The translations under genes and the position numbers were made by a program. The notes below the pieces were generated by a model that saw only the letters and a program-made list of their open reading frames with translations, did not search any database and had not been told where the DNA came from. From Bacilli bacterium (GTDB lineage Bacteria; Bacillota_I; Bacilli_A; RFN20; CAG-826), in assembly GCA_045130875.1 (NCBI GenBank), contig JBGUQI010000011.1, positions 73,828 through 137,827 of the forward strand: a stretch of DNA of 64,000 nucleotides, in the 5' to 3' direction. Below are positions 11,281-57,375 of this stretch, in pieces. Numbering within the stretch: position 1 is the stretch's first letter; each line of letters begins with the position of its first letter.

Positions 11281-12222
11281 TTATTCGTTTGTCTCAGGAG
11301 TTTCCGCTTCTACTGGTTCTAAGAATTGTTCAAAATATTGAGCAAATAAATGGCCTAATTGAACTTCAGAATCAGAGTCATAGTGTGCGGTATCAGGACT
11401 GCCATAAGGTTCTTGATCGGTATGTAATCCCGCTTGAATGGTGTTGAAGTAGAAATTATATTCGCTCTCTTCCGCGAAAGCCTTTTTAGCTTTATTGACT
11501 TCAGAGAAATATTGCCACAATTCAGAACCACTGATACCAGCATCAATAAATGGTAATGTTTTACCTGCTGTGTATTTGCCTAAATCTTCTCTTAAATGAG
11601 AAACAAATGTTTCTAGGTTCTGTTTATAGTATTGATAATAACCCTGATAAGAATCACCTTCACCCTGCATCCAACAGAAGGCTTTAAGAACAGGTCTATA
11701 GCCTTGTTTGGTTAAGGCTTCCATCTGCTTAGCAACATAGTCCATCATCTTTGGATACATTGGGGAATCTCTATCTAGCCAGTCATCTTTTAAATTAGAA
11801 CCACCACAAGCGAATTTGATGAGGAATAATTTATCACCATATTTTTCATGTAATGCGTCCGCAATGCCAATTTCCGGCCCGAAAGAATGTGAGCCATTAC
11901 CTTGACCCAGTTTTACTGGAACGAAGCCATTTGAGGCGTTTTGCGAGAAGAAAGTAATTCCGGAAGCGGGCCAATCTTTTGTCCAGCAATCATGAGCAAT
12001 CTTAATAGTATTAAACCCATCAAAGAACTCATTGTATTTCTCTGGCATCGTGTCTCTAAGATAAATAGAGTTTGTACAGCCCACACCATTAGATTGTCCA
12101 GATATCAAAACAACATCCACTGGACCTCTATCTGGAACTGGTTCAGATGGACCTTCTTGTTTCTTGGATGTGCAAGAAAACACCAAAGGGGATAATAACA
12201 TCAAATATAATAACTTTTTCAT
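11281..12222 (-). CDS. SASA/DUF303-type carbohydrate O-acetylesterase lipoprotein
   Basis: Lipobox LVFS|CTS. Motifs VVLISGQSNGVGC (GQSN nucleophile block) and WMQGEGD are typical of sialate-O-acetylesterase-like (PF03629-type) esterases. Confidence 0.75.
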   Translation of the reverse strand: MKKLLYLMLLSPLVFSCTSKKQEGPSEPVPDRGPVDVVLISGQSNGVGCTNSIYLRDTMPEKYNEFFDGFNTIKIAHDCWTKDWPASGITFFSQNASNGFVPVKLGQGNGSHSFGPEIGIADALHEKYGDKLFLIKFACGGSNLKDDWLDRDSPMYPKMMDYVAKQMEALTKQGYRPVLKAFCWMQGEGDSYQGYYQYYKQNLETFVSHLREDLGKYTAGKTLPFIDAGISGSELWQYFSEVNKAKKAFAEESEYNFYFNTIQAGLHTDQEPYGSPDTAHYDSDSEVQLGHLFAQYFEQFLEPVEAETPETNE

Positions 12223-12269
12223 GCTTTTATTTTATAAAACTTAAAAATAATTTACGATAACAAATTAGT

Positions 12270-12307
12270 AAACAAACAAAAAGGCTTCCACCAAAAAGAT
12301 GGAAACC
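12270..12307 (-). terminator. Intrinsic terminator ending the upstream long operon
   Basis: Minus strand reads GGTTTCCA-TCTTTTTGG-TGGAAGCC (8 bp, one G-U) followed by TTTTTGTTTGTTT. Confidence 0.6.
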
Positions 12308-12382
12308 ATACTAAAATGTTTTTCGTTTTTAAATCACACAACTGTTTGTGTTTTTAAAAAATGAGATGCACCAAGTAGTTAA

Positions 12383-14014
12383 TTATTTGGCAAATCTTTT
12401 CTTTTTTAATAAAGCAAAGGCCATTAATGTTAAAGCGGCAACGCTAATCAAAGTAGCACACATGATAATCGCTATATTCTTATTTTCTTTTATGCTGACT
12501 ACTTGATTTGTGGAAATTGCTGTGCTTGTTAACACGCTGTCATTGGCTTGAGCCCAAGCATATAAACGATTGTAATAAGTGGCATAATTTGAACCAGCAA
12601 ACACATCTCTTTGTGCTTGTGTTAATGCATTATAAGCAGCTTTCGCGTTGGCAAACCAATTTTCACTTGTACATTTACCTGTGCCAGCATCATCAACGGC
12701 AACTTCTTCATGCAAATATGTTCTAACGAAATGTTCAACTGCATAAATATCGGAAGCTGAATTGTTTACACGAATATCAAATGTGGCACCTTGAGTTCTG
12801 GATTCATAACCGCCAAAGGATATTTGGGCTTTATTTCCATACCAAGAGAATAAATCTCCGCCTTTATTTAACTGGCAAGCCCATGTTCCGTTAAGGAAAA
12901 TGTCTGTTGTTGTTGCACCGATCACAAATTTCACAGTTAATCCAGAATTAGTGTTAAATAAAGCACTATCATAATAATTGCTGGTGGCGGGATCGCCGGC
13001 TGTTGAATTAAGAGGAACAACTCTTTCCCAACTTCCGTAATTTTGAATACCGATACCAACAAATGCTGGCCAATAGTAAACATTGGAATATGGAATGGTT
13101 AAACTATTGTTTAAAATCACATAGAATGATCCAGTAACGGAACATTGGACATTCACTTCAATCTCTTGAGTGGTATCAACTAAATCGTCATATACAACAC
13201 CTTGATATAAAGCACCGCCGTACCAGCCAACCGCTTCTTGATCAACCATTCTAACTCCACCATTAGGTAATGATGATAATGTTTTGCCTGTTCCATCAAC
13301 TCTAACATTAGCAACTCTACTAACCTTCTCAACGGCAATTGTGTAAGAGGTAGTAGACATTCTTGTACCTTGCGGCCCAATAGATAAAGAAGCTTTGTAA
13401 TTTGACCAATAATCAAATACGTTTCTTGTTGTAATGCCATCAGTAGTAAAGGAAACTGAATCATTGACTCTCACAATTGTGCCATTTGGTTTAATGTCAA
13501 AAGTGAGTTTAATAGCACCTTCATTAAAATGGGCACTGACTGGGTCGCCAGCAATTGTGGCGCCAACAGAATTGGCGGCGGATATTTGAACGGCTCCACC
13601 ATAATCTGATTCCCAATTAAATTTGCCCCAGTAGTCCAATTTGATAATCAACGCACCGACTGACCAATTGTAAGAATCCCATGGTGCTTGAAGATTGTTG
13701 CTGACTGTAAGATAAAGTGATCCATTTGAAGTCAACTCTGTAGTATTAATTGTTACTTCATATACATAGTCACGCAAATCCAATTGTTCACTATAAAGTG
13801 CGCCAGTGTAGCATATATCTTGCCATCCTGAATCAACTGTGTCAGCAAAAGTAACTTGATTGGTGTTCGCAACATCGCTTACCACCACCTCAGAATTTAA
13901 TGAGGTCCATTTGTCGCTTGCGGCGTATGCGCCTTGGTTAATTTCGGTGCCTTTAATACCTATAGCTAACGCCATGCCAGCAATAACCGATAATAGTAAA
14001 AAGTTCTTTTTCAT
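12383..14014 (-). CDS. Tail-anchored surface protein with two lectin-like (ConA/LamG-type) beta-sandwich repeats
   Basis: 543 aa with an N-terminal signal peptide and two about 200-aa internal repeats (GW..GALY...E..(I/V)N...GS.Y). A helical Cys-containing module (KCTSENWFANAKAAYNALTQAQRDVF...LYAWAQAN) precedes a C-terminal TM helix and KKKRFAK tail. Confidence 0.6.
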   Translation of the reverse strand: MKKNFLLLSVIAGMALAIGIKGTEINQGAYAASDKWTSLNSEVVVSDVANTNQVTFADTVDSGWQDICYTGALYSEQLDLRDYVYEVTINTTELTSNGSLYLTVSNNLQAPWDSYNWSVGALIIKLDYWGKFNWESDYGGAVQISAANSVGATIAGDPVSAHFNEGAIKLTFDIKPNGTIVRVNDSVSFTTDGITTRNVFDYWSNYKASLSIGPQGTRMSTTSYTIAVEKVSRVANVRVDGTGKTLSSLPNGGVRMVDQEAVGWYGGALYQGVVYDDLVDTTQEIEVNVQCSVTGSFYVILNNSLTIPYSNVYYWPAFVGIGIQNYGSWERVVPLNSTAGDPATSNYYDSALFNTNSGLTVKFVIGATTTDIFLNGTWACQLNKGGDLFSWYGNKAQISFGGYESRTQGATFDIRVNNSASDIYAVEHFVRTYLHEEVAVDDAGTGKCTSENWFANAKAAYNALTQAQRDVFAGSNYATYYNRLYAWAQANDSVLTSTAISTNQVVSIKENKNIAIIMCATLISVAALTLMAFALLKKKRFAK

Positions 14015-14031: not shown

Positions 14032-16494
14032 TTATTTATATTTCTCAACACAATACCCACTATCTAGCATTGTCTTGAGTAATATCTGAGCATAAGAACG
14101 TATAATGAAATCGTTGGAGTGATTAACATTATTACCCGTTACATCCCTTGATAATTTACCAGTGCCTAAAATCCAGTTAGTAAAGGCCTGAACATCCGCA
14201 ATAGCAATTTGATTAACATAAGAACTGACATTCATAACATCTTCACTCCAAGCAGGAATGTTTCTAATGTTATGAGTCCATGCATCAACAGCTTGTTGAT
14301 TGGATAATTCTGGGGTTTGAATAATCAAATTAGCGCTCGGATTATCATCAAAGAATTTATTTATAAGACTATTAAGCATTTCTTTATATTCGTCTTCTGA
14401 TGTCATCGTGTCGTTGCCACCAATACGAAGAATCATTAAATCAATATGTTTACCTTTAATTCTTTCGTTGTAAGCATTTAAACATTCAGAAATCTTCCAA
14501 CCACCAACGGCTTGATTCTCAATATTGATTTGGCTGGTATATTTCTTTTCTAAATATAATTTAGAAAGATTATAAGCATCTGGCATATGGGGATTAATTA
14601 AGCCACCTTGTTCGGTTCCGCTAGCGTTGCAACCAGTAGCGACGGAATCACCATAAACCATCCAATCAATGTTTTCGCCATTACGAAGTTTAGATAATAC
14701 TCTTTCAAGTTTATTTTGTTGGGCTTCCGGAACCTTTCCCGTATAGACATCATCATGACGATAAGTGACTGCGATTTGTTTATCAGTAAATGTGGCAAAT
14801 TCACCATATTTCAAATACTTTTGATGATCAAATGGGATATCGGTCTTGCTCATATCCGCTTCAACGGCAACACCATAACTCTTATCTTGAATCTCATCTT
14901 CATCAATAAAATATTCATCGTATTCCCAATAAGGAATCTCGCTTCCTTTTAATCGTTTAATAATACGACCATTAACAACATAATCTCTGCCTTCAACATA
15001 GGTTTTCTGCAAACGATAATCGGTGATGGATTTAATTTCGGTCGGCTCAAACATCAATGTGCTTTCACCTTCTTCGCCCACAAACATACAAGTTTCGTTG
15101 TATATTTCACGAGTGAACCAATATGGTTTAAGATAAGCATCTAATAAGTTATCATCAAAATCATTAAATGATTTCCATTCTTCTTGATCGGCTGGCAGTA
15201 ATACTTTGCGCACTATCACAGGAATGCCGTTGTTGATATCAAATAATGGAGTTGATTGACGATATGTTTTGTCATCAATCTGACTTGCAATGTTGACATA
15301 GACAATTTTGGCATTGCTAGGAACAGTAACTTCAAATCTTCCGTTGACTTTATCAATTTTTGTTGAAACATCAACTTGTTCAAAATCGGAATTGATAACG
15401 GAACCATTAATAGCGTCATTTGAATATTCCAAAATATCGTTCTTGGCATAAATCTCAATAAATGAGTTGGAAACATTCTCAGGAATCATAAACTTTCCTT
15501 TAATAATTCCTTCTTCCAAAACGATGTCACGAAGATATGGTAAAGTTGTTTTGTTTTCAGTCATGGAATCCGCAAATTCATACACTTCATTGATTTTCCA
15601 AGCGGTATCATGACCATGTGTGTGTTCTGCGATAAATACGAGGTCAGCTCCTAAAATTGTGGCTGATTTGCTAGTGATATTTGAAGAAAAGTGTGGATCA
15701 TGATCGGAATTTGCATACATGATTTTAGCCTTATAGTATTTAAAATAAAGGCTTGGGTCATATAAGGAATACATCGCATCAGGCCTGTCGCTAGAAGCAA
15801 AGGCAGAACGAGAATCATATAAGAAACCTGAACCATAAATAGGCACACCGAAGGAATATCTATCGTCGCATCCTAAAGCAATAGAGCAAATCACAGAACC
15901 CCATGAAATACCCACAATCCCTATTTTGGTGTTATCGACATGTTCGTCATTCGCCAATATTGTGGTAGCTCTTATAACTGTGGAAACAGCTTGGAACATC
16001 CATTGATCTTGAATGTCAATTCTTGGATTCATCATATAATCGGTATAAGGTCCACCTAAACCATCTCTAGAGTTGTCTGGGCGTTTACCTTCGGTATCCA
16101 TCGCAATAGCGACATATCCTCTTTCGTTCCATATTCTTACCCATTCGGCAAAAGCGGTTCCTCCACCACCATGAACCAAAACAACGGCCGGGTGTTTTCC
16201 TTCCGTAGATGGATAACCAATATAGGCAAAAACTTTAGTGGGTTCGTTTTTATAAGTCGCACCATCGTATTCAATAGCTTTTACGCCTTCTTCATCATAT
16301 GATGCATTAAAGGAGTAGGTGACTTCCGCTTTAGTTTCTTCCACTAATTTCGGTCTAACTTTGTCACTATTATCAACTATTTCAATATAGTCATTAACAT
16401 CCACGTCTGGCTCCTCCTTCTTTTGGGTCGGTTTACATCCAGGAAGAAGCAAACAAAAGAATGTAGTTAATATTAAATATTTAAGTTTTTTCAT
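14032..16494 (-). CDS. Bifunctional carbohydrate esterase lipoprotein: alpha/beta-hydrolase + beta-sandwich + SGNH/GDSL hydrolase
   Basis: 820 aa with lipobox LLLPG|CK. The N-terminal half has VVLVHGGGGTAFAEW and nucleophile elbow GISWGS. The C-terminal half has SGNH blocks VYGDSVATG, AVGGW and LRIGGNDT. The halves are paralogous to the separate genes 41374..42651 and 49504..50766. Confidence 0.75.
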   Translation of the reverse strand: MKKLKYLILTTFFCLLLPGCKPTQKKEEPDVDVNDYIEIVDNSDKVRPKLVEETKAEVTYSFNASYDEEGVKAIEYDGATYKNEPTKVFAYIGYPSTEGKHPAVVLVHGGGGTAFAEWVRIWNERGYVAIAMDTEGKRPDNSRDGLGGPYTDYMMNPRIDIQDQWMFQAVSTVIRATTILANDEHVDNTKIGIVGISWGSVICSIALGCDDRYSFGVPIYGSGFLYDSRSAFASSDRPDAMYSLYDPSLYFKYYKAKIMYANSDHDPHFSSNITSKSATILGADLVFIAEHTHGHDTAWKINEVYEFADSMTENKTTLPYLRDIVLEEGIIKGKFMIPENVSNSFIEIYAKNDILEYSNDAINGSVINSDFEQVDVSTKIDKVNGRFEVTVPSNAKIVYVNIASQIDDKTYRQSTPLFDINNGIPVIVRKVLLPADQEEWKSFNDFDDNLLDAYLKPYWFTREIYNETCMFVGEEGESTLMFEPTEIKSITDYRLQKTYVEGRDYVVNGRIIKRLKGSEIPYWEYDEYFIDEDEIQDKSYGVAVEADMSKTDIPFDHQKYLKYGEFATFTDKQIAVTYRHDDVYTGKVPEAQQNKLERVLSKLRNGENIDWMVYGDSVATGCNASGTEQGGLINPHMPDAYNLSKLYLEKKYTSQINIENQAVGGWKISECLNAYNERIKGKHIDLMILRIGGNDTMTSEDEYKEMLNSLINKFFDDNPSANLIIQTPELSNQQAVDAWTHNIRNIPAWSEDVMNVSSYVNQIAIADVQAFTNWILGTGKLSRDVTGNNVNHSNDFIIRSYAQILLKTMLDSGYCVEKYK

Positions 16495-32573: not shown

Positions 32574-32721
32574 AATTAAAGGATCTCTGAAATGCTCTGT
32601 TCTAATGTTTTGACATTTTTATTATAAAATAACTTTTTTGTGCTTAACATTACATAAAATATATAAAAATATGCACTTTTGTTGTTTTTTGAACATTCAA
32701 AACATATACTTATTTATAAAG

Positions 32722-47168: not shown

Positions 47169-47169
47169 A

Positions 47170-48117: not shown

Positions 48118-48120
48118 TTT

Positions 48121-49503: not shown

Positions 49504-50766
49504 TTAATATTTGACAATGGTAGAAAGAATAGACTGCAAATAAATACGACTGGCATAGTCATTGACATGGTTAATGCCATTCGCAGTCATGTCTTGGTAT
49601 TTTTTGTTTTTATATAGTTCTTTAGAAACATTAAAGACATCCACTAAAGCGGTGCCTTGAATAGAATTGGTAATTTCTCTTTTAATCTTGTTGATGTAAC
49701 TATCAACTTTTTCATAATCATAAATCATGGGGTTAGGTCCAAAGGGTGTAAGGATTAAGAATTCACAATCTGGACATCTATTTCTCACTTCTAAAACGAG
49801 GGAAACCATATTATCTATAAAAGAATTAGGACTCACGCCTGCGCCTAAATCATTAATTCCAAAATGAATAATTAATAAATCAGGATTCTCTTGTGAAACA
49901 TTATAGATTTGGGTGTTATTACATCCCCAAGATGATTGAGTGCCACCCACAGAGAGGTTTGCGCCAGTGATATGAGATTCAAGCTTTTCATTTAGATATG
50001 AAATACTCATATTGAAGAATGTTTCCATAAATGGTTCATGATTAAATTTCTTAGAAGAAGAACAACCTTCTAATACAGAATCGCCAAGACCAACAATTTT
50101 AATGTCTTGGTTATTAGCTAATTTATTTTTTAATTTAGGTAAAGTTTCTAATTGATTGTCAGGGAAGGACGCTAAAGTATCCACGATTTCTCTAATGTCG
50201 TAGACATAAGAAACCTGGATTTGGTGACCATAATATAAATCGGATTCGGTATAATAAGCCGGTCCCATTTGCACACAGTCAGTGGAAATATTAGAAATAG
50301 AACTCACTAATCGATATCCATCAGGAAGGTATTCACCTTTTAAAGTGGAATCTTCTAGATAGGGCATTGTTGAATTTTCAGTACGAATAATTGTCTTGCC
50401 ATCTAATGTATAATCGGTTCCTTCCACATAGTTGTGGGTTTTAAGAGTAAAGTCTTTAATCGCCAAAATCTTCAGAGGAGTATAAGCGAGTTTTCCAGAG
50501 ATAACTCCCGTCTCGCTATCTTTGGATAATAGAACTGTCTCGTTATAGATGACATTCCCTTTCCAAAAAGGATCGGATATTTGCTTATCTTCAAAGGAAT
50601 AAGCTAGACTATCATAATCCTCTACATAATTAGGAAATTTAGTTAAATCAATCTCTTGTTCTTCGCTTTTGCTCTCATCTTTGGATGATGAATCTGGTTT
50701 TGTGTGGGTACAGGAAACACACAAAAACAAACAGACAGGCAACAAAAAATTACAAATTTTTCGCAT
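49504..50766 (-). CDS. SGNH/GDSL esterase lipoprotein with N-terminal beta-sandwich (paralog of the C-terminal two thirds of 14032..16494)
   Basis: Lipobox LCVS|CTH and SGNH blocks VGLGDSVLEG, LSVGGTQS and IHFGINDLG. The ATG at 50766 (MRKICNF) has GGAGA 9 nt upstream; the ORF-track start at 50805 is less likely. Confidence 0.75.
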   Translation of the reverse strand: MRKICNFLLPVCLFLCVSCTHTKPDSSSKDESKSEEQEIDLTKFPNYVEDYDSLAYSFEDKQISDPFWKGNVIYNETVLLSKDSETGVISGKLAYTPLKILAIKDFTLKTHNYVEGTDYTLDGKTIIRTENSTMPYLEDSTLKGEYLPDGYRLVSSISNISTDCVQMGPAYYTESDLYYGHQIQVSYVYDIREIVDTLASFPDNQLETLPKLKNKLANNQDIKIVGLGDSVLEGCSSSKKFNHEPFMETFFNMSISYLNEKLESHITGANLSVGGTQSSWGCNNTQIYNVSQENPDLLIIHFGINDLGAGVSPNSFIDNMVSLVLEVRNRCPDCEFLILTPFGPNPMIYDYEKVDSYINKIKREITNSIQGTALVDVFNVSKELYKNKKYQDMTANGINHVNDYASRIYLQSILSTIVKY

Positions 50767-50892: not shown

Positions 50893-51792
50893 ATGAATAG
50901 TGAGTCACTAGGAATTGCTTTATATCAAACCAATAATATTGAAGATCCCTCAAAGGTCATTCAGTTAGGTTATCATACCCACAACACCATTGAGTTTTCT
51001 TATATCCATTCAGGAACGATTGATTTTTGGTATCAAGGAAAAGATAAAGAAATTAAACAAACAATCCTAAAGAATCAAATGATTATCATTTTTCCTAATG
51101 TCAGTCACCGCTTTGATATCAATAATTCATTAATCAGTATTGGTATGGAACTATGCTTACCTAATTATGAAAGTGACATCTACTCATTTTTAAATCAATC
51201 ACCATTCATCCATGAATTCTTAAACGACTATTCCTTCAGTATAAACAACCCTTTTATCATTATTAATGATAGCGAAAATCTGTTCACATCTCTTCTGGAG
51301 ATGAAAAGATATTCCAAATTCAATGATTTAACCGATATAGAAAAAGAGAAATTCCAACTTAAATTAAAAAGTCTTCTTTTAGATATCGTTCAGTGCGAGA
51401 AGATTTCTCCCACACAAAAGAAATCTAACTTTATTATCAATAAATCCTTGGGTTACATTGAAAGAAACTATTTTAGAGACATTAAAGCTCCCGATGTATC
51501 CGCTGCCGTAGGTGTATCTTATTCATATTTAAGGAATCTATATCAAACCATATTACATACAAGCATTAATGACGCGATCAACAAAAGTAGAATCGAAAAG
51601 GCTAAAGATTTAATTAAAAGTGGACTACCTTTAAAGACCGTCAGTGAACAAGTAGGATTTAAAACCCAACAACATTTTGATAAAGTCTTCAAAAAGTTTG
51701 AAAAGACATCCCCCACTGATTTTAAAAAGAATGTCAAAATCGATACAAATAGATATTTTGTGGTTAATAAACCAAATCTATATGATTTTTAA
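50893..51792 (+). CDS. AraC-family transcriptional regulator
   Basis: 299 aa with an N-terminal cupin-like domain. The C-terminal HTH pair reads IKAPDVSAAVGVSYSYLRNLYQ...LKTVSEQVGFKTQQHFDKVFKKFEKTSPTDF. Divergent from the second operon. Confidence 0.85.
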   Translation: MNSESLGIALYQTNNIEDPSKVIQLGYHTHNTIEFSYIHSGTIDFWYQGKDKEIKQTILKNQMIIIFPNVSHRFDINNSLISIGMELCLPNYESDIYSFLNQSPFIHEFLNDYSFSINNPFIIINDSENLFTSLLEMKRYSKFNDLTDIEKEKFQLKLKSLLLDIVQCEKISPTQKKSNFIINKSLGYIERNYFRDIKAPDVSAAVGVSYSYLRNLYQTILHTSINDAINKSRIEKAKDLIKSGLPLKTVSEQVGFKTQQHFDKVFKKFEKTSPTDFKKNVKIDTNRYFVVNKPNLYDF

Positions 51793-52276: not shown

Positions 52277-54454
52277 ATGAATAAAGGTTTTATCACTATT
52301 CCCACTGACGCTGATTTCGTGGAAGAAACCAAAAAATATATAAAGATGTGGGGTGCCGATGCAGTTAGAGACTGCGATGGTGTTTCTCTCCCTAAAAACG
52401 TTCAAGATTTTAACTGTGAAGTATACAAAGCTTACTTCATCGTTAGAGAAGATCATGAATACGCTAAGAAGCATCATGAATATCTTCAAAATGTCGCTTT
52501 GATAACCGATAGATATACCGCTTTAGAAGATGAATTAAGAATTGACCTTTTAAAGAATATCTTTAAAGACTCCATTGAAGTCAATGAAGATAGAAAAGAA
52601 AAGTATTGGCAAGTCATTGATAGAACCACAGGAAAGATTCATAAAGATTGGGAATACTTAGGTAACAATATTGTCCTTATTAAGAACCCTATTAAATATC
52701 ACGAATATACCGTATCCTTCTTTGGAAGAAATATCTGGGATCCTGTCCAGATATATAACTACCATTCCAACAATTGGAAAGATGTTCCTAAAGATTTGGA
52801 TTTAGACCCTATATATCCAGAAGCTTTAAACCATATGTTAAAGAGAATGGAAGATTGGTGTATTGCTCATCCAGAAGTCACTGTAGTTAGATTCACCACT
52901 TTCTTCTATAACTTCTTCATCGTCTATGTCACTGGTTTAACCCAGGGATATTGGGATTGGCATACCTACGCGATGAGTGCCTCTCCTGAGATGTTTGACT
53001 ATCTCAAAAAAGAATTCGATTTCGATGTCACATTAGAGGATGTTGTCACCGGCGGAACATATGCTTCAAAATTCGAAATTCCCAGCGAAAAGACCAGGAA
53101 ATACATCGATTTAGTGCAAAAACTATGCTGCAGATGGGCCAAACAATTCGTCGATATCGTTCATAAATATAACAAGAAAGCAATGATGTTTGATGGCGAC
53201 CATCGTATTGGTACAGAACCATATAATCCCTATTTTGCCTCAATCGGATTAGATGCGGTTGTCGGTGCCCCTCACAGTGGGCCATATATCCGTTTATTAA
53301 CCGATATGACAGGCATCAAATACACAGAAGGTAGATTGAATCCTTATTTCTTCCCCAATGAATGTCCAAGTGATGCAGAGGGTGTGAAGTTCCTCACGAA
53401 TAACTGGAACAGTGAGAAGAGAGGTCTTCTAAAGAAGTGCATCGATAGAATTGGCTTCGGTGGTTATCTCCGCCTCGCGGATACTTATCCAAATTTCTGC
53501 AAGCTCATCAAAGATGTCTGTGATGAATTTAGATTAATCAAAGAACATGTTGGCAAAGAAGGCGCCTACTCTCATGTGAAGATTGCTGTCATTTCCTATT
53601 GGGGAAGATTATTCTCCTGGATGACTAACGGCACATTCACTGATGACACAAAACCAGAAACCATTGGTTACAATACATTCTTTAACGCAGTCTGTGGTCA
53701 ACCTGTGGATGTTAGTTTCATTTCCTTTGATGAAGTAATGAATGGTGATTTATCTAAGTATGATGTTTTGGTGAATACTGGTTTACCAGGATCCGCCTTC
53801 CAAGGTGATTATTATTGGAAGAATGAAAAGCTTCTCTCTAGAATTAGAGAGTTTGTCGCAAATGGAGGTGGCTTTATCGGTATCGGCGAACCATCTGGAT
53901 ATAAATATCAAGGCAAGTATTTCCAATTAGAAGATGTCCTTGGTGTACAAAAAGAAGTTGGTTTCACCTATCCTAGAAACAAATTCTTCCCAGAAAAAGA
54001 TTTGAAGCATTGGATTATCAATGACTATGATGTCAATAAGATTAGATTTGGTCCTCAAGGTTATGGAGTTTATCCTTTAACCGCGAATGTCTTAGCTAGC
54101 TCCCCAAATAACTTCAATGAAACCACAAGATTATTAACTGGTGGGGATGTCTTCTTATCCACCAATGAATTTGGCAAAGGAAGAGCGGTATTTATCTCCT
54201 CACTATTAGATTGTTTTGAATCTTATAGATTAATCTATAAATCTCTATTATGGGCTTCTCATAAAGAGAACTTATATGAAAGAGCCTTATCTAAAGATAT
54301 CACCACAGATTGTTACTATTATGAAAAATCAAATAGCTACGCAATCTTCAACAGCGGGATTACCACTGTCACCACTGATTTCTACGATATTAAAGGAAAC
54401 AAAAAAGAAATCACCGTCGGTCCTAAAGAGATTCTTTGGATTAATGGTAAGTAA
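52277..54454 (+). CDS. GH112 beta-galactoside phosphorylase (lacto-N-biose/galacto-N-biose/Gal-beta-1,4-L-Rha phosphorylase family)
   Basis: 725 aa. It is collinear with the remembered Bifidobacterium LNBP sequence: the start ...IPTDADFVEETKKYIKMWGADAVRDCDG, then YWQVIDRTTG, HEYTVSF...IWDPVQIYN, VVRFTTFFYNF, AMMFDGDHRIGTEPY, GLDAVVG and IKYTEGRLNPYFFP. Confidence 0.9.
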   Translation: MNKGFITIPTDADFVEETKKYIKMWGADAVRDCDGVSLPKNVQDFNCEVYKAYFIVREDHEYAKKHHEYLQNVALITDRYTALEDELRIDLLKNIFKDSIEVNEDRKEKYWQVIDRTTGKIHKDWEYLGNNIVLIKNPIKYHEYTVSFFGRNIWDPVQIYNYHSNNWKDVPKDLDLDPIYPEALNHMLKRMEDWCIAHPEVTVVRFTTFFYNFFIVYVTGLTQGYWDWHTYAMSASPEMFDYLKKEFDFDVTLEDVVTGGTYASKFEIPSEKTRKYIDLVQKLCCRWAKQFVDIVHKYNKKAMMFDGDHRIGTEPYNPYFASIGLDAVVGAPHSGPYIRLLTDMTGIKYTEGRLNPYFFPNECPSDAEGVKFLTNNWNSEKRGLLKKCIDRIGFGGYLRLADTYPNFCKLIKDVCDEFRLIKEHVGKEGAYSHVKIAVISYWGRLFSWMTNGTFTDDTKPETIGYNTFFNAVCGQPVDVSFISFDEVMNGDLSKYDVLVNTGLPGSAFQGDYYWKNEKLLSRIREFVANGGGFIGIGEPSGYKYQGKYFQLEDVLGVQKEVGFTYPRNKFFPEKDLKHWIINDYDVNKIRFGPQGYGVYPLTANVLASSPNNFNETTRLLTGGDVFLSTNEFGKGRAVFISSLLDCFESYRLIYKSLLWASHKENLYERALSKDITTDCYYYEKSNSYAIFNSGITTVTTDFYDIKGNKKEITVGPKEILWINGK

Positions 54455-54495: not shown

Positions 54496-54496
54496 T

Positions 54497-55525
54497 TTAT
54501 TTATTGTCTTTTTCGTCGTTATTAAATAATAATTTAATACTCTTATAAGGTCCAAAGAGGGTGAGGAGATCACCTTTCTCCACGATTGTGTCCTTATCCA
54601 CGACGACATATTTATCTTTTCTTTTAATAAATCCAATAGTGATATTGTATTTGTCTTTTAATGGGGTGTTCTGCATCTTCACTCCATCAAGTTCTGCTGG
54701 TACTTCATCAACATAGACTTCCACTAAAGCATTGGAGCCGTAGTTGTTCACTAAAGTGATTTCGTTAATTCTTTCAATAGGAACAATCTCTTTGTCTTTC
54801 TTAAGAGAATTAACAAAGACTTCTTTGATATCATTGATTAAACCATAGATAACTAAGACATCACCTTTACGGAACATCGTGTCTTTAGTGACTTCAATGA
54901 TTCTCGCTCCTCTTTTAATGGATAAGACATTGATGGAATAATTTCTAGTTAATCCCATATCAATTAAGGATGTTTCTTTAGCAAATTCAGGAACGTTATT
55001 TAACACCACTTCCGCGATTGCGTATTTACCATATAAATCTAAGACAGTGATGATGTTTGTGTTTCTCTTTTTCCTAGATGAATTAATGGCAATATTCTCT
55101 AAAAACCTTTGAAATCTCTTGTTAATTGGGGGAATTTTGATAAATAACATCAAGATAAATAATCCCGCTGTGACACATAAAACTATAAAGGAAGCATCAG
55201 TAACTGGAGGTAAATTGATGTTGTTATCTAAAAGCAACATGGAGATGGAGAACAAGACGTTGATAATCAAACCCATAAATGCCACGGAGAAAATGTGACC
55301 AGTATACATACAAGCTAACGCAATCTTTCTTCTCTTCTCATCATGAGTGACAAGTTCACTTTCCGCGGTGGTATAACCCGCGCCAGTAAATAAGGAGCCA
55401 ACTTGGAATCTAATCTTACTAGTGGCAAGTCCAGTGAGTTTAAAAGCCACGGAAAAGATTTCTATCGTAAATAGATAGATGGTGACAACTCCTATAACTA
55501 ACGCAATAGCTAACCAAAGATTCAT
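54497..55525 (-). CDS. Membrane protein with channel-like N-terminal TM region and two TrkA-C (RCK C-terminal) domains
   Basis: 342 aa. The order is TM1, the loop SLFTGAGYTTAES, then TM2 and TM3. Two ~80-aa TrkA_C-like repeats follow (KGDVLVIYG...; KGDLLTLFG...). Confidence 0.55.
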   Translation of the reverse strand: MNLWLAIALVIGVVTIYLFTIEIFSVAFKLTGLATSKIRFQVGSLFTGAGYTTAESELVTHDEKRRKIALACMYTGHIFSVAFMGLIINVLFSISMLLLDNNINLPPVTDASFIVLCVTAGLFILMLFIKIPPINKRFQRFLENIAINSSRKKRNTNIITVLDLYGKYAIAEVVLNNVPEFAKETSLIDMGLTRNYSINVLSIKRGARIIEVTKDTMFRKGDVLVIYGLINDIKEVFVNSLKKDKEIVPIERINEITLVNNYGSNALVEVYVDEVPAELDGVKMQNTPLKDKYNITIGFIKRKDKYVVVDKDTIVEKGDLLTLFGPYKSIKLLFNNDEKDNK

Positions 55526-55647
55526 ATATCGCTCTCGATATATTGTATATTAACTTTTCATAAATATTCAGTGTTTTGTTGTTTCAATAACAAATATTTG
55601 CCCTTCAATTATTGAATTAAAGTTGCTACACGATAGAAAATATAGTT

Positions 55648-57375
55648 ATGAGATTTTTAAATAATCATAAGATTGTTTATCACAACCAAATATCAAAGAT
55701 GGTTGATTTTGTTACACAAACTCAAATTTTAAACCGCGCAATGTGGAAGAACTTTATTGAAGTCTTTAAAGATAAAACTGATAATGAGGATTTGAGATGG
55801 AGGGGTGAATACTTTGGTAAGACCATGCGAGGCGCCTGTCTCCTCTACCAGTTCAATAGATCAAAAGAAATTTATGACATCTTAAAGGAAACAGTTATCG
55901 ATTTATTATCAACTCAAGATGAACTAGGAAGAATATCTACTTATAAAGTTGATAATGAGTTTAAATCTTGGGATATCTGGTGCCGTAAATATGTTTTAGT
56001 GGGGCTATTACATTTCTATGATGTTGAAGAGGATCCAATATTTAATAATCAAATATTATTGGCAGCGTGTAAGCACGTTGATTATCTAATAGATAAAATA
56101 GGTAATAAACCAGATCAAAAAAGAATAACTGACACCAGTGATTTCTGGTTAGGAGTTAATTCTTCATCAATCTTAGAGCCCGTCACTGTTTTGTATAAGA
56201 AAACCAATGACAAAAAGTATTTAGATTTTGCCACTTACATTGTTAATGAAGGCGGTATTAAAGATGGTAATCTCATTGAGATGGTTAAAAGCAGAAAATA
56301 TAAACCCAGTGAATACCCAGAACAAAAGGCTTATGAAACTATGTCCTTCTTTGAAGGAATATATGAATATAGCAAAATAATTCATGATAAAGATTTGTTA
56401 AATACCTCATTACTATTCTTTGAAGATGTCAATAAAAATGAAATATCTATCATCGGTAATGCCGGCACTAACGAAGAGTGCTTTTCTGATACGGTTATCA
56501 ACCAATTAACTAAACAGTCTAAATTCATGCAGGAAACCTGTGTGGTTGTAACCTGGATGAGAATATGCGCAAAGCTATTCTTAGATACTGGTGATATCAA
56601 ATACTATGAAAGATTCATAAAGGCAGGGCTTAATTGTTTCTATGGAAGTTTAAATTATCAAAATCAAAAGGGATATGAATACTACTTGAAAGTGGAGACT
56701 GAACCACTGCCATTTGATAGTTATTCTCCACTTCTATTTAATCGCCGCGGTCTTTCAACCGGAGGATTAAACTTCTTTAAAGATGGATCTTCTTATGGTT
56801 GTTGTGCTTGTATCGGTGCAGCAGGTGCGGGTTTGTTAGCGAACCTCTCTATCACAGAAGATGATAAATTCGTTTATATAAATGAATACTTCAATGGTCA
56901 GATGGTTTCTGAAACCACATCCATCACCATTAATGGTGATTATTTCAATACTGGAATAGTTAATTTAGATATTCAAACCAATAAGAGAATTAAGATTCGC
57001 ATTCCTGAGTGGTCCAAACGAACAATCATTAATGGAAAAGAAATCAATGAAACTGGATATCATCTTTTAGGAGACGAATCTTCTTTTGAAATCAAATTTG
57101 ATTTAGGCATTAAAGTCCACTATCTAGAAGATTGTGTCGCTCTAACTTATGGCGATATCACTTTGGGGTTTGATGATGAATCTAATCCAAATATTGATTT
57201 AGAGAGTGTAAGATTCTCTGAAATTAAAGATATGAAAGTCAGTAATAACAAAACGGGCGACTTTGTCACTCTAGAAGGCAGAATCAATGATAAGAAGATT
57301 ATCGTAAAAGATTATGCTTCACTAGGAAAACACTGGAACAATAATTCCGTGCTTACTGCTTGGTTTAAAAAATAA
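55648..57375 (+). CDS. GH127/GH146-like (DUF1680 superfamily) glycoside hydrolase, beta-L-arabinofuranosidase-like
   Basis: 575 aa, no signal peptide. N-terminal WRGEYFGKTMRGACLLY, then QETCVVVTWMR (Glu-x-Cys) and YGCCACIGAAG (Cys-Cys). These match the Glu/Cys3 Zn-and-nucleophile pattern known for HypBA1-type enzymes. The protein is shorter and the CC context differs from the usual CCPPN. Confidence 0.55.
   Translation: MRFLNNHKIVYHNQISKMVDFVTQTQILNRAMWKNFIEVFKDKTDNEDLRWRGEYFGKTMRGACLLYQFNRSKEIYDILKETVIDLLSTQDELGRISTYKVDNEFKSWDIWCRKYVLVGLLHFYDVEEDPIFNNQILLAACKHVDYLIDKIGNKPDQKRITDTSDFWLGVNSSSILEPVTVLYKKTNDKKYLDFATYIVNEGGIKDGNLIEMVKSRKYKPSEYPEQKAYETMSFFEGIYEYSKIIHDKDLLNTSLLFFEDVNKNEISIIGNAGTNEECFSDTVINQLTKQSKFMQETCVVVTWMRICAKLFLDTGDIKYYERFIKAGLNCFYGSLNYQNQKGYEYYLKVETEPLPFDSYSPLLFNRRGLSTGGLNFFKDGSSYGCCACIGAAGAGLLANLSITEDDKFVYINEYFNGQMVSETTSITINGDYFNTGIVNLDIQTNKRIKIRIPEWSKRTIINGKEINETGYHLLGDESSFEIKFDLGIKVHYLEDCVALTYGDITLGFDDESNPNIDLESVRFSEIKDMKVSNNKTGDFVTLEGRINDKKIIVKDYASLGKHWNNNSVLTAWFKK

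What the first reader, a model, noticed from the sequence alone, without database searches (positions are those of the whole stretch)
11281..57375. Two paralogous AraC-linked operons form a PUL-like rhamnoside/plant-glycan capture and degradation system in an LPXTG-free, lipoprotein-rich low-GC bacterium
Seen in sequence: two long minus-strand gene strings, 32573->12383 and 50766->33539. Genes are tightly packed or overlap (TAATG at 16494 and 29964; ATGA at 22387-22390; 11-17 nt overlaps at 19036, 25963, 42641, 44466). Each string is divergent from an AraC gene. Both carry the same parts list in different arrangements: a GH78 rhamnosidase (three in total), an SBP lipoprotein with two permeases, an alpha/beta-hydrolase esterase, an SGNH esterase and giant lectin/Ig-repeat surface proteins. 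Only the second operon encodes an ATPase. Adjacent genes add a GH112 phosphorylase, a GH127-like enzyme and a SASA esterase. No pectate lyase, GH28, GH105 or rhamnose catabolic genes are present. Inference: an extracellular capture and de-esterification layer feeds oligosaccharides to ABC importers, and cytoplasmic signal-less GH78, GH112 and GH127 enzymes finish degradation. Candidate substrates are rhamnogalacturonan-I side chains, arabinogalactan-protein/gum-arabic caps or rhamnosylated plant glycosides. This combination of tail-anchored lectin proteins, unknown hydrolase families and domain fusions is not a textbook Gram-positive PUL.
Basis: partly seen in the sequence, partly recalled or inferred. 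Interest (0 to 1): 0.7.

Follow-up and report, generated by a model that had tools for sequence, protein, structure and literature searches.

The report
Two-operon rhamnose-glycan harvesting locus
An uncultured low-GC gut or rumen bacterium carries two adjacent operons that appear to strip, cut, import and finish off a rhamnose-rich esterified polysaccharide, and two of the enzyme families involved have never been characterised yet travel with rhamnosidases in three bacterial lineages.

Summary
I confirmed two tightly packed minus-strand operons, each divergent from an AraC gene. I also confirmed three cytoplasmic GH78 rhamnosidases, two SBP plus two-permease sets, one MalK-type ATPase, SGNH and alpha/beta-hydrolase esterases, tail-anchored surface proteins, and nearby GH112, GH127-like and SASA genes.

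The operons are not recent paralogues (24-38% identity). Each is a separate cassette that is syntenic on its own in other uncultured Bacilli, Mollicutes and Clostridia.

Their hallmark unknowns are "X" (two 600/611-aa lipoproteins, a distant GH99/GH71-like barrel plus a CBM9-like domain) and DUF5722 (a clan GH-A barrel). These sit side by side with GH78, an SGNH esterase and an alpha/beta-hydrolase in single Bacteroidota SusC/D PULs. X, DUF5722 and GH78 are also adjacent in cultured Cohnella.

In relatives the cassette runs directly into rhaA/rhaB/rhaD. The GH112 clade sits inside rhamnose operons.

Best reading: a Gram-positive-type PUL that harvests L-rhamnose. The substrate is unproven; RG-I-type pectin is favoured at about 0.45. 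This is a new variant of a known kind, with two candidate new glycoside hydrolase families.

The parts
11281..12222 (-). SASA-type (sialate-O-acetylesterase-like) carbohydrate esterase lipoprotein. It is a separate transcription unit downstream of operon 1.
   Evidence: Pfam SASA 2.3e-22. Lipobox VFSC and GQSNG motif. A terminator lies between it and operon 1.
12283..12307 (-). Terminator-like hairpin ending operon 1.
   Evidence: 10-bp stem followed by TTTTTGTTTG.
12383..14014 (-). 543-aa surface protein of unknown fold, with a signal peptide and a C-terminal TM anchor with basic tail. Last gene of operon 1.
   Evidence: Topology. No Pfam, NCBIfam or PDB hit. The equivalent position holds a 532-aa protein, 30% identical, in L042.
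14032..16494 (-). 820-aa lipoprotein fusing an AXE1-like alpha/beta-hydrolase esterase (N-terminal half) to an SGNH/GDSL esterase (C-terminal half).
   Evidence: Pfam AXE1 2.5e-11 and Lipase_GDSL_2. The N-terminal half is 33% identical to 41374-42651 and the C-terminal half 28% identical to 49504-50805. GISWG and GDS motifs are present.
16494..19052 (-). GH78 alpha-L-rhamnosidase, cytoplasmic (no signal peptide).
   Evidence: Five GH78 Pfam domains, Bac_rhamnosid6H 8.4e-76. 38% identical to 35572-38091.
19036..21540 (-). DUF5722 protein of 834 aa, a predicted clan GH-A (beta/alpha)8 retaining glycosidase. It has flanking beta-sandwich domains, a signal peptide and a C-terminal TM anchor.
   Evidence: Pfam DUF5722 9.5e-84. 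AF2 pLDDT 89.5. Foldseek hits GH2, GH1, GH5 and GH39 barrels at 1e-11 to 1e-8. Invariant N328-E329 lies after strand 321-326 and E491 in strand 487-492.
21542..22390 (-). ABC permease (CUT1-type) of operon 1.
   Evidence: BPD_transp_1 1.1e-12. Six TM segments.
22387..24333 (-). ABC permease with an N-terminal extracytoplasmic beta-propeller-like domain of about 300 aa (a fusion).
   Evidence: BPD_transp_1 plus weak beta-propeller hits. TM layout. The same fusion in Cohnella carries PQQ_2/beta-propeller Pfam tags.
24339..25979 (-). Solute-binding lipoprotein of operon 1.
   Evidence: SBP_bac_1 2.3e-16. Lipobox LVGC.
25963..29964 (-). 1333-aa surface protein with five CBM_X2 repeats, a signal peptide and a C-terminal TM anchor. 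Putative glycan-binding or scaffold protein.
   Evidence: CBM_X2 6.3e-33 over 5 stretches. Topology. Syntenic homologues in L042 and L046.
29964..32573 (-). Divergent GH78 alpha-L-rhamnosidase, cytoplasmic. First gene of operon 1.
   Evidence: GH78 domains, 7e-70. Only 26-27% identical to the other two GH78s.
32638..33501 (+). AraC-family regulator 1, divergent from operon 1 and convergent with operon 2.
   Evidence: HTH_AraC 3.3e-21. AraC homologues sit divergent from the cassette in L006, L008, L009, L034, L036, L039 and L040.
33449..33471 (-). Terminator-like hairpin ending operon 2.
   Evidence: 8-bp stem followed by TTTTTAAATAT.
33539..34117 (-). RpiB/LacAB-family sugar(-phosphate) isomerase-like protein. 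Last gene of operon 2.
   Evidence: LacAB_rpiB 3.7e-27, below all NCBIfam equivalog cut-offs. 96% identical in L002 at the same position.
34136..35566 (-). MalK/MsmX-type ABC ATPase. It is the only sugar-importer ATPase in the locus and probably serves both importers.
   Evidence: ABC_tran 1.2e-31 with TOBE_2 and OB_MalK. A 64-70% identical ATPase sits directly upstream of the GH112 homologue in L047.
35572..38091 (-). GH78 alpha-L-rhamnosidase, cytoplasmic.
   Evidence: GH78 domains, 5.8e-78. Best PDB hit 6I60 at 3e-133. Syntenic in about 20 loci.
38116..41334 (-). 1072-aa all-Ig-like surface protein with a signal peptide and a C-terminal TM anchor. Putative glycan-binding or scaffold protein.
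   Evidence: Big_2 and Big-like domains. The N-terminal 570 aa has only 25 relatives among 1.84 billion representatives, and those carry only Ig-like domains.
41374..42651 (-). Alpha/beta-hydrolase esterase lipoprotein.
   Evidence: Peptidase_S9, DLH and Abhydrolase_6 hits. GVSWG motif. Lipobox LAAC.
42641..44476 (-). X611: lipoprotein of an uncharacterised family, with a distant GH99/GH71-like (beta/alpha)8 barrel and a CBM9-like C-terminal domain. Putative extracellular glycan depolymerase.
   Evidence: No Pfam or NCBIfam hit. 1145 homologues. AF2 pLDDT 86. Foldseek GH99 1.4e-5, GH71 2e-4, CBM9 1.5e-3. Profile against GH99 gives 6e-4 with the FNEW motif aligned.
44466..46268 (-). X600: paralogue of X611 that keeps every invariant residue of the family.
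   Evidence: 38% identity over the full length. Included in alignment A1, whose invariant columns therefore hold for it.
46275..48117 (-). Two ABC permeases of operon 2 (46275-47168 and 47170-48117).
   Evidence: BPD_transp_1 9.5e-17 and 7.2e-10.
48121..49491 (-). Solute-binding lipoprotein of operon 2.
   Evidence: SBP_bac_8 and SBP_bac_1. Lipobox LTGC.
49504..50766 (-). SGNH/GDSL esterase lipoprotein. First gene of operon 2.
   Evidence: Lipase_GDSL_2 1.3e-14. GDS motif. Start ATG 50766 with AGGAG.
50893..51792 (+). AraC-family regulator 2 (cupin plus HTH), divergent from operon 2.
   Evidence: HTH_18, AraC_binding and Cupin_2. 74% identical in L002 at the same position.
52277..54454 (+). 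GH112 beta-galactoside phosphorylase, cytoplasmic. Inferred to be a D-galactosyl-beta1,4-L-rhamnose phosphorylase type.
   Evidence: Lact_bio_phlase 7.8e-150 and TIGR02336 651 bits. Aligns to 2ZUS with catalytic Asp313 conserved. Homologues at 69% and 56% identity lie in a rhamnose operon or next to a GH78-like gene.
55648..57375 (+). GH127-like protein, cytoplasmic. Linked to the system only by proximity.
   Evidence: GH127 catalytic domain 4.6e-25. Cys cluster C385/C386/C388.

Best explanation
The region is a two-operon, Gram-positive-type polysaccharide utilisation system. Its nutritional pay-off is L-rhamnose, plus galactose as Gal-1-P.

**Steps shown by sequence, topology and synteny**
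1. Membrane-tethered proteins sit on the cell surface, either as lipoproteins or with a signal peptide plus a C-terminal TM tail.
2. These include Ig-like and CBM_X2 binding proteins, SGNH and alpha/beta-hydrolase esterases, two X-family enzymes and one DUF5722 clan GH-A enzyme.
3. Two CUT1-type ABC importers are encoded, with a single MalK-type ATPase.
4. Three GH78 rhamnosidases and a GH112 phosphorylase lack signal peptides, so they act inside the cell.

**Inferred mechanism**
1. The glycan is captured and O-deacylated at the surface.
2. It is cut into oligosaccharides by X600/X611 (likely alpha-linkage endo- or exo-hydrolases) and trimmed by DUF5722.
3. The fragments are imported by both transporters, which share the one ATPase.
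4. Inside, the GH78s remove terminal alpha-L-Rha. GH112 splits Gal-beta1,4-Rha into Gal-1-P and Rha.
5. Rhamnose then enters an RhaA/B/D pathway encoded elsewhere in the genome.
6. Each operon is switched on by its divergent AraC regulator.

**Substrate**
My favoured substrate is acetylated rhamnogalacturonan-I-type pectin or gum (probability about 0.45). In that model X cleaves GalA-alpha1,2-Rha bonds. This yields Rha-alpha1,4-GalA and Gal-Rha-GalA fragments that GH78 and GH112 can finish without lyases, GH28 or GH105.
For: **Anatomy**
- Domain assignments, topology and intact catalytic motifs.
- Operon structure and terminators.

**Operon 2 is a conserved cassette**
- The order AraC | SGNH-SBP-permease-permease-X-X-abhydrolase-Ig protein-GH78 is conserved in about 20 MAG loci.
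- In L008 it continues into RhaA (1e-153), a class II aldolase and an FGGY kinase. In L003, L005, L007 and L035 it continues into the aldolase, the kinase and an ATPase.

**Operon 1 is a conserved cassette**
- It is conserved in L042, L043 and L046.

**The two operons belong together**
- The Parapedobacter PUL reads SusD-MFS-GH78-X-X-DUF5722-abhydrolase-SGNH.
- The Terrimonas PUL holds SGNH-abhydrolase-X ... aldolase-isomerase-like-GH78-X-GH78.
- Cohnella holds DUF5722-X-GH78 plus the propeller::permease importer.
- The operon 1 esterase is a fusion of the two operon 2 esterase types.
- GH78 lies within 10 kb of X in 26 of 40 loci.

**Enzyme character of the unknowns**
- X. DUF5722.

**GH112 and the link to rhamnose and RG-I**
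- GH112 homologues sit in rhamnose operons.
- The characterised GalRhaP enzymes are ascribed a role in RG-I degradation (PMC8950772).
- Shared ATPases (MsmX/MsmK) for CUT1 importers in Firmicutes are established knowledge.
- AraC-controlled L-Rha-oligosaccharide and RG regulons are documented (PMC3870299).
Against: - No activity has been measured for X, DUF5722, the esterases or this GH112. Everything about chemistry is inference.
- No enzyme for the uronic acid half of RG-I is in the window or in the syntenic loci: no GH28, GH105, PL, or uxa/kdg genes. Only rhamnose catabolism is linked.
- X lacks the second catalytic Glu of GH99. It matches GH99/GH71 only weakly (TM about 0.48), so even its hydrolase nature is a prediction.
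- Rhamnose catabolic genes are absent from this window.
- GH112 adjacency could not be confirmed in the closest species-level relative, L002, because the contig ends there.
- GalRhaP specificity could not be tested by sequence, because no named reference appeared among the hits.
- Operon continuity, ATPase sharing and AraC control are untested.
Confidence: 0.7

Rival explanations
1. The system has the same architecture, but the substrate is a microbial rhamnose-rich polysaccharide. Candidates are Gram-positive cell-wall rhamnans or rhamnose-glucose polysaccharides, O-antigen rhamnans, and acylated EPS such as sphingans. X would act as an endo-alpha-L-rhamnanase, DUF5722 would remove beta-linked side chains, and the GH78s would finish oligorhamnosides.
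For: - Only rhamnose catabolism is co-localised with the module across phyla. No uronate catabolism is seen.
- Loci carry several GH78 and X paralogues and few other GH families.
- GH99, the nearest fold to X, acts on alpha-manno-configured sugars, and L-rhamnose is 6-deoxy-L-mannose (the stereochemical argument is my inference).
- Carriers include soil Chitinophagaceae and digester, rumen and gut organisms, where microbial necromass is abundant.
- From memory: some rumen mollicutes are bacteriolytic.
Against: - The GH112 link points to Gal-beta1,4-Rha, whose accepted source is RG-I.
- Acetylesterase pairs and AraC-controlled CUT1 importers are typical of plant-glycan loci such as B. subtilis yes/RhgR.
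- Habitats are dominated by plant biomass (rumen, termite gut, Hadza gut, digesters).
- No cellular endo-rhamnanase of this fold is known.
Confidence: 0.2
2. The two operons are independent systems for two different glycans and merely sit next to each other. Operon 1 (DUF5722, CBM_X2) and operon 2 (X, Ig protein) would not cooperate.
For: - Each cassette occurs alone within +/-10 kb in other genomes.
- The ABC parts are only 24-30% identical. The AraC regulators are different and the binding proteins unrelated.
- Relatives of the two cassettes have very different GC content, 0.30-0.57, which implies separate horizontal histories.
Against: - X, DUF5722 and GH78 are contiguous in four Bacteroidota PULs and in Cohnella. 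The Bacteroidota PULs also carry both esterase types.
- The operon 1 esterase fuses the two operon 2 esterase types.
- Only one ATPase serves the locus.
Confidence: 0.2
3. The target is the rhamnose cap of arabinogalactan-protein or gum arabic (Rha-alpha1,4-GlcA-beta1,6-Gal), or other AGP-like glycans.
For: - GH78 enzymes such as SaRha78A (3W5M, the second-best PDB hit) act on gum arabic (from memory).
- DUF5722 as a clan GH-A enzyme could be a beta-glucuronidase or beta-galactosidase.
- A GH127-like gene lies nearby.
Against: - AGPs are not notably esterified, yet two or three esterase types are core to the module.
- No GH43, GH35, GH30 or GH154-type AGP enzymes are present.
- The GH112 and rhamnose-operon link fits Gal-beta1,4-Rha rather than AGP linkages.
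Confidence: 0.1
4. The locus deglycosylates small rhamnosylated plant metabolites, such as rutin, naringin, saponins or acylated glycosides. The surface proteins would be unrelated adhesins.
For: - GH78 enzymes commonly act on flavonoid rutinosides and neohesperidosides (papers listed).
- Esterases could remove acyl groups.
- Several Bacteroidota carriers come from ginsenoside-converting genera.
Against: - The extracellular enzymes bear CBM9-like and beta-sandwich modules, and there are large CBM_X2 and Ig proteins.
- SusC/SusD pairs accompany the homologous module in Bacteroidota.
- No beta-glucosidase gene is present to finish such glycosides.
Confidence: 0.06

Closest known systems
Gram-positive PULs (gpPULs) and L-rhamnose-oligosaccharide utilisation regulons (RhmEFG/RhmA, rhiLFG/ramA; Rodionova et al. 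2013, PMC3870299)
   Same: - Regulator, CUT1 ABC importer and glycoside hydrolases are co-localised.
- GH78 acts on imported rhamno-oligosaccharides.
- AraC-family control.
- Adjacency to rhaA/B/D in relatives.
   Different: - A much larger extracellular layer: two uncharacterised enzyme families, three esterase types and giant binding proteins.
- Two importers and one ATPase, arranged in two operons.
- TM-tail or lipoprotein anchoring instead of LPXTG.
Bacillus subtilis rhamnogalacturonan-I system (yes/yte clusters; AraC-type YesS = RhgR, YesOPQ importer, YesT/YesY SGNH acetylesterases, MsmX ATPase)
   Same: - AraC regulator.
- An ATPase-less CUT1 importer that relies on a shared MalK-like ATPase.
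- SGNH acetylesterases.
- Rhamnose as a product (and established knowledge).
   Different: - B. subtilis uses PL11 lyases and GH105 hydrolases, and has no GH78.
- Here there are no lyases or GH105. X, DUF5722 and GH78 take their place.
Bacteroidota Sus-like PULs carrying the same enzyme set (Parapedobacter pyrenivorans L027, Terrimonas sp. NS-102 L016, Proteiniphilum L020)
   Same: - GH78, two or three X paralogues, sometimes DUF5722, an alpha/beta-hydrolase and an SGNH esterase.
- X proteins are about 50% identical across phyla.
   Different: - SusC/SusD and an MFS transporter replace the ABC importers.
- The GH78s there may act in the periplasm; this is my assumption and their signal peptides were not examined.
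- None of these PULs has been characterised either.
GH99 endo-alpha-1,2-mannosidase/mannanase and GH71 alpha-1,3-glucanase (nearest folds to the X family)
   Same: - A (beta/alpha)8 barrel.
- The FNEW motif aligns with the GH99 FNEWHE motif, with the first Glu conserved.
   Different: - 14-16% identity and TM about 0.48.
- The second catalytic Glu is replaced by an invariant Ala.
- An extra CBM9-like domain.
- No Pfam GH99 hit for the window proteins.
GH112 D-galactosyl-beta1,4-L-rhamnose phosphorylase (Cphy_1920, Oter_1377)
   Same: - GH112 three-domain architecture with the catalytic Asp conserved.
- Genomic association with rhamnose genes.
- A proposed role in RG-I breakdown.
   Different: - I could not compare the sequence directly with the characterised enzymes.
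- NCBIfam places it under the generic GalHexNAc phosphorylase model.

Membership tests
Gram-positive PUL (gpPUL) | Co-localised genes for at least one polysaccharide-degrading enzyme, a carbohydrate transporter and a transcriptional regulator. | tested here: met
   Each operon has GH78 plus other hydrolases, an SBP with two permeases, and a divergent AraC regulator.
Bacteroidota Sus-like PUL | An adjacent SusC (TonB-dependent transporter) and SusD pair. | tested here: not met
   No SusC or SusD in the window. They are present in the homologous Bacteroidota loci.
GH78 alpha-L-rhamnosidase (three genes) | The Bac_rhamnosid_N, Bac_rhamnosid, (alpha/alpha)6 Bac_rhamnosid6H and C-terminal domain architecture, above the Pfam gathering scores. 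| tested here: met
   236-263 bits for the catalytic domain in all three. PDB 6I60 and 3W5M hits.
GH78 alpha-L-rhamnosidase (three genes) | Hydrolysis of terminal alpha-L-rhamnosides. | not testable with these tools
   Needs an enzyme assay.
GH99 (for X600/X611) | A significant match to the family model. | tested here: not met
   No Pfam hit at E<=0.01. The profile against GH99 chains gives only E 6e-4. A few distant homologues carry a precomputed PF16317 tag.
GH99 (for X600/X611) | The catalytic Glu pair in the NEWHE motif (BtGH99 E329/E332). | tested here: not met
   The first Glu is invariant (E363). The position of the second is an invariant Ala366.
GH99 (for X600/X611) | A (beta/alpha)8 barrel fold. 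| tested here: met
   AF2 model with pLDDT 86. Foldseek to GH99 gives E 1.4e-5, probability 1.00 and TMt 0.48-0.53.
Clan GH-A (for DUF5722) | A (beta/alpha)8 barrel with an Asn-Glu acid/base after strand 4 and a Glu nucleophile at the end of strand 7. | tested here: met
   Invariant N328-E329 follows strand 321-326 and invariant E491 lies in strand 487-492. The best Foldseek matches are GH2, GH1, GH5 and GH39 barrels. I did not do a structural superposition of the residues.
Any existing, structurally solved GH family (for DUF5722 and X) | A close sequence or structure match to a solved member. | tested here: not met
   No PDB sequence hit. Foldseek matches are generic and 10-16% identical. CAZy/dbCAN HMMs were not available.
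GH112 GalRhaP subtype | GH112 domains with the catalytic Asp (GLNBP D313). | tested here: met
GH112 GalRhaP subtype | Acceptor specificity for L-rhamnose, or clustering with Cphy_1920 and Oter_1377. | tested here: inconclusive
   No named reference among the 120 best hits, and the original paper is not held. Context supports it: homologues lie in rhamnose operons or next to a GH78-like gene.
B. subtilis-type RG-I utilisation locus | RG lyase (PL11, PL4 or PL9) plus GH105 unsaturated rhamnogalacturonyl hydrolase. | tested here: not met
   None found in the window or in the syntenic loci examined.
CUT1 ABC importer with a shared MsmX/MsmK-type ATPase | An SBP_bac_1, two BPD_transp_1 permeases and a MalK-like ATPase with a TOBE domain, with one ATPase serving several importers. 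| tested here: inconclusive
   The components are present and there is a single ATPase for two importers. Sharing is not testable here.

The most novel reading that the evidence does not exclude
X (a GH99/GH71-like barrel plus a CBM9-like domain) and DUF5722 (a clan GH-A barrel) are two new glycoside hydrolase families. Together with GH78 and two esterase types they form a conserved, horizontally mobile, lyase-independent hydrolytic pathway. The pathway would target a rhamnose-backbone glycan: either the RG-I backbone via GalA-alpha1,2-Rha hydrolysis, or an alpha-L-rhamnan via the first cellular endo-rhamnanase. The module would be shared from Bacteroidota SusC/D PULs to ABC-importer loci of Mollicutes-like, apparently sortase-independent Bacilli.
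Probability: 0.35. Interest if true: 0.7.

Novelty: new variant of a known kind. Interest (0 to 1): 0.55.

Why it matters
- **New enzyme families.** If the X and DUF5722 proteins are the depolymerases of this module, they would define two new CAZy families. They would also define a hydrolytic route to rhamnose-rich glycans that bypasses the lyase/GH105 paradigm.
- **A hidden plant-fibre guild.** Poorly known, genome-reduced Mollicutes-like Bacilli of rumen and gut would be shown to take part in pectin or rhamnan turnover.
- **Annotation.** More than 1000 "hypothetical" proteins across soil and gut Bacteroidota and Bacillota would gain a function.
- **Testability.** Cultured carriers make this directly testable: Cohnella lubricantis, Terrimonas sp. 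NS-102 and Parapedobacter spp.

Tried and rejected
- **Literature on the unknowns.** Searches for DUF5722, PF18989, GalRhaP/Cphy_1920 and cellular endo-rhamnosidases found nothing on the two unknown families. The original GalRhaP paper is not held.
- **Subtyping GH112 by name.** The 120 best of 8000 hits carry only the generic name. I used genomic context instead.
- **Naming the source organism.** The window lies on an unnamed 205-kb NCBI MAG contig. I can only place it near "Erysipelotrichaceae RUG14006" and other Mollicutes- or Bacilli-labelled MAGs.
- **Sequence searches against PDB.** The 543-aa protein, DUF5722 (single sequence and profile) and both SBPs gave nothing useful.
- **A hidden catalytic domain in the 1072-aa protein.** I found only Ig-like domains and a very narrow family.
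- **Orphan X genes.** The Bacteroidales loci L013 and L015 have no PUL context and say nothing about the substrate.
- **Rejected: a recent operon duplication**.
- **Rejected: a whole RG-II degradome.** There is no GH2, GH28, GH43, GH95, GH105, GH106 or PL1.
- **Rejected: X as a GH99 member.** The catalytic pair is not conserved.
- **Promoter consensus scans.** These were at or below shuffle expectation and I did not use them.

Full report

Yes. The six-frame ORF map shows nine contiguous minus-strand genes from 32573 down to 12383, and eleven from about 50766 down to 33539.

The junctions are exactly as described:
- TAATG at 16494 and 29964.
- ATGA at 22387-22390.
- 17-nt overlaps at 19036-19052 and 25963-25979.
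- 11-nt overlaps at 42641-42651 and 44466-44476.
- All other intra-operon gaps are 39 nt or less.

The only strong terminator-like hairpins on the minus strand lie just after the last gene of each string, at 12307-12283 and 33471-33449. Operon 1 therefore ends before the SASA gene, which is a separate unit. AraC-family genes are divergent from each string.

**2. Gene content**

| Component | Operon 1 (12383-32573) | Operon 2 (33539-50766) |
|---|---|---|
| GH78 | 16494-19052 and 29964-32573 | 35572-38091 |
| SBP plus two permeases | yes | yes |
| Esterases | AXE1-like + GDSL fusion lipoprotein (14032-16494) | alpha/beta-hydrolase lipoprotein (41374-42651) and GDSL lipoprotein (49504-50766) |
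| ABC ATPase | none | one MalK-type (34136-35566) |

- All three GH78s have full domain sets and no signal peptide.
- Flanking genes include GH112 (52277-54454), a GH127-like protein (55648-57375) and SASA (11281-12222).
- Catalytic motifs are intact: GDS, GxSWG, GQSN and the GH127 Cys cluster.
- The rest of the window holds nucleotide-salvage and housekeeping genes. It has no PL, GH28, GH105 or rhaA/B/D gene.
- Many proteins are lipoproteins. Five large proteins have a signal peptide plus a C-terminal TM helix with a basic tail. No C-terminal LPXTG is present.
- The genetic code is standard, with TGA used as a stop codon.

- An RpiB/LacAB-like gene ends operon 2 (33539-34117).
- The 648-aa "permease" carries an N-terminal extracytoplasmic beta-propeller-like domain of about 300 aa.
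- The 834-aa tail-anchored protein is a DUF5722 enzyme, not a lectin.

**3. Are the operons paralogous?**

Only loosely. All-against-all BLASTP gives:
- 38% identity between two GH78s; the third is 26-27% identical to both.
- 24-30% identity between the ABC parts.
- No detectable similarity between the two giant proteins or between the two AraC proteins.

The most telling relation is the operon 1 esterase. It is a head-to-tail fusion of the two operon 2 esterase types, 33% identical in the N-terminal half and 28% in the C-terminal half.

**4. Source organism**

The window lies on an unnamed 205-kb NCBI MAG contig and also appears in a Logan assembly.

The nearest GTDB species representative is a rumen MAG labelled Erysipelotrichaceae RUG14006, at 71-96% amino-acid identity across operon 2. 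The next relatives are labelled Mollicutes, Bacilli, Acholeplasmataceae or Haloplasmataceae. This fits the lipoprotein and TM-tail surface display. A wall-less lifestyle cannot be proven from 64 kb.

**5. Conservation elsewhere: the key result**

Operon 2 is a cassette conserved in about 20 MAG loci. Its order is:

AraC | SGNH - SBP - permease - permease - X600 - X611 - alpha/beta-hydrolase - Ig protein - GH78

In those relatives it runs straight into rhamnose catabolism:
- L008: RhaA (1e-153), class II aldolase, FGGY kinase.
- L003, L005, L007, L035: aldolase, kinase, ATPase.

Operon 1 is a second cassette. Its order is:

GH78 - CBM_X2 giant - SBP - propeller::permease - permease - DUF5722 - GH78 - esterase - anchored protein

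It is conserved at 44-70% identity in L042/L043 and at 29-60% in a termite-gut Clostridia MAG (L046).

The hallmark genes of the two cassettes occur together in single loci elsewhere:
- The Parapedobacter pyrenivorans PUL reads SusD - MFS - GH78 - X - X - DUF5722 - alpha/beta-hydrolase - SGNH.
- Terrimonas and Proteiniphilum PULs carry SGNH, an alpha/beta-hydrolase, X paralogues and GH78. They also have an aldolase and/or a 323-aa xylose-isomerase-like protein.
- Cultured Cohnella lubricantis has DUF5722 - X - GH78 next to the propeller::permease importer.
- GH78 lies within 10 kb of X in 26 of 40 loci, and DUF5722 does so in four Bacteroidota loci.

I therefore treat {GH78, X, DUF5722, SGNH, alpha/beta-hydrolase} as one functional module, split here over two operons. 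Relatives of the cassettes have GC contents from 0.30 to 0.57. X is about 50% identical between phyla. The module therefore moves horizontally.

**6. The unknown proteins**

*X600/X611*
- No Pfam or NCBIfam hit, but more than 1000 homologues.
- A confident AF2 model (pLDDT 86) shows a (beta/alpha)8 barrel. Its nearest solved folds are GH99 endo-alpha-mannosidase (E 1.4e-5, TMt about 0.5) and GH71. A C-terminal domain resembles CBM9.
- A profile search aligns the family's invariant FNEW with the GH99 FNEWHE motif. The first catalytic Glu is kept (E363). The second is an invariant Ala.
- X is therefore not a GH99 member. It is plausibly a glycosidase for an alpha-linkage.
- Both paralogues keep all invariant residues.

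*DUF5722*
- The AF2 model (pLDDT 89.5) is a clan GH-A-type barrel. Invariant N328-E329 sits after strand 4 and invariant E491 on strand 7.
- Foldseek finds only generic GH2, GH1, GH5 and GH39 matches. There is no PDB sequence match.

*The 1072-aa protein*
- It belongs to a very narrow, fast-evolving family made only of Ig-like domains. This fits a binding or scaffold role.

No paper in the library mentions DUF5722, PF18989 or a cellular endo-rhamnosidase of this kind.

**7. GH112**

The protein has all three GH112 domains and the catalytic Asp of B. longum GLNBP. I could not place it by name against the characterised Gal-beta1,4-Rha phosphorylases.

Its relatives give context:
- A 69%-identical homologue sits in the operon ATPase - GH112 - isomerase-like - MFS - (GDSL+aldolase) - FGGY kinase - RhaA. 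That ATPase is 64-70% identical to the window's ATPase.
- A 56%-identical homologue is followed by a GH78-like gene and an AraC gene.

This ties the clade to rhamnose. It also fits GalRhaP, an enzyme ascribed to RG-I breakdown (PMC8950772).

**8. Mechanism**

*Shown by sequence and synteny*
- Surface-tethered binders, esterases and putative depolymerases.
- Two CUT1 importers with one ATPase.
- Cytoplasmic GH78 and GH112.
- AraC genes divergent from each operon.
- Linkage to rhamnose catabolism in relatives.

*Inferred*
1. The glycan is O-deacylated at the surface.
2. X cuts it and DUF5722 trims it.
3. Oligosaccharides are imported.
4. GH78s and GH112 release Rha and Gal-1-P.

*Substrate*
- My favoured substrate is acetylated RG-I-type pectin (about 0.45).
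- If X hydrolyses GalA-alpha1,2-Rha, the products are Rha-alpha1,4-GalA and Gal-beta1,4-Rha-alpha1,4-GalA. GH78 and GH112 can finish these completely, which would explain the absence of lyases, GH28 and GH105.
- The main weakness is that no uronate-handling gene is linked anywhere.
- That gap keeps a microbial rhamnan or EPS substrate alive (about 0.2), along with AGP caps (about 0.1) and small glycosides (about 0.06).

**9. Comparison with known systems, and novelty**

The architecture meets the gpPUL definition. It resembles the documented L-Rha-oligosaccharide regulons and the AraC (RhgR/YesS)-controlled B. subtilis RG-I system (PMC3870299).

It differs in three ways:
- It replaces lyase/GH105 chemistry with two uncharacterised putative GH families.
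- It is split over two operons.
- It uses TM-tail or lipoprotein display.

I rate it a new variant of a known kind. Interest is moderate to good (0.55). The architecture is not surprising, but a cross-phylum module with two candidate new GH families and cultured carriers is a concrete, testable lead.

Noticed in passing
window 3587-3684 (-): A purine riboswitch aptamer (RF00167, 48.4 bits) lies upstream of a Bmp/PnrA-type nucleoside-binding lipoprotein and an ABC ATPase (2320-3507 and 526-2274). It sits next to purine-salvage genes.
   Followed up: no
window 22387-24333 (-); L044 21470-23386; L042 7173-9146; L046 7125-9128: An ABC permease is fused to an N-terminal extracytoplasmic beta-propeller (PQQ_2-like) domain of about 300 aa. 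The fusion is conserved from this MAG to Clostridia and cultured Cohnella, always in DUF5722/GH78 loci. The role of the propeller is unknown; it might bind glycan or dock the SBP.
   Followed up: partly
window 33539-34117 (-); L002 19224-19799: An RpiB/LacAB-like isomerase (192 aa, below all equivalog cut-offs, 96% conserved in the nearest relative) sits near the operon end, after GH78 and the ATPase. Other relatives carry rhaA/rhaD/rhaB after GH78. It may be a sugar or sugar-phosphate isomerase linked to the pathway.
   Followed up: partly
L016 14314-15282; 323-aa ORFs in L014, L020, L022, L026; L047 10190-11071: A xylose-isomerase-like TIM-barrel protein (AP_endonuc_2) of 293-323 aa recurs next to GH78/X genes in Bacteroidota PULs. 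It also sits directly after GH112 in a rhamnose operon of a 30%-GC Bacilli MAG. This is an uncharacterised, conserved companion of rhamnose utilisation.
   Followed up: partly
L047 12340-13779: A single 479-aa product combines a GDSL/SGNH esterase with a class II (rhamnulose-1-P-type) aldolase domain, inside a rhamnose operon.
   Followed up: no
window 58390-61047 (-) and 57381-58331 (-): Just outside the finding lie another tail-anchored 885-aa Ig/PKD-like surface protein and a signal-less alpha/beta-hydrolase. The C-terminal 100 aa of the surface protein resemble those of the 543-aa operon 1 protein (34% identity). Both may belong to the same surface system.
   Followed up: partly
window 8910-10004 (-) and 61044-62222 (-): Two paralogous lipoproteins (33% identity) with a Y_phosphatase3 tyrosine-phosphatase-like domain flank the region on either side.
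   Followed up: no
window 50835-50869: An imperfect inverted repeat, AATCATTTTTTATAA / TTATAAATTTTGATT, lies in the divergent promoter between AraC 2 and operon 2. It falls within the block best conserved with the L002 promoter and is a candidate operator.
   Followed up: partly
L007, L010, L018, L025, L039 (record titles): Several GTDB/NCBI MAG records carrying this Mollicutes- or Bacteroidota-type locus are titled Escherichia coli, Prevotella sp. CAG:755, Citrobacter, Acinetobacter pittii or Acidiphilium. These are evidently mislabelled or mis-binned contigs.
   Followed up: no
L002, L042, L044, L046, L047: Relatives of the cassettes range from 30% to 57% GC, and X proteins are about 50% identical between Bacillota and Bacteroidota. 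This points to repeated horizontal transfer of the module.
   Followed up: partly
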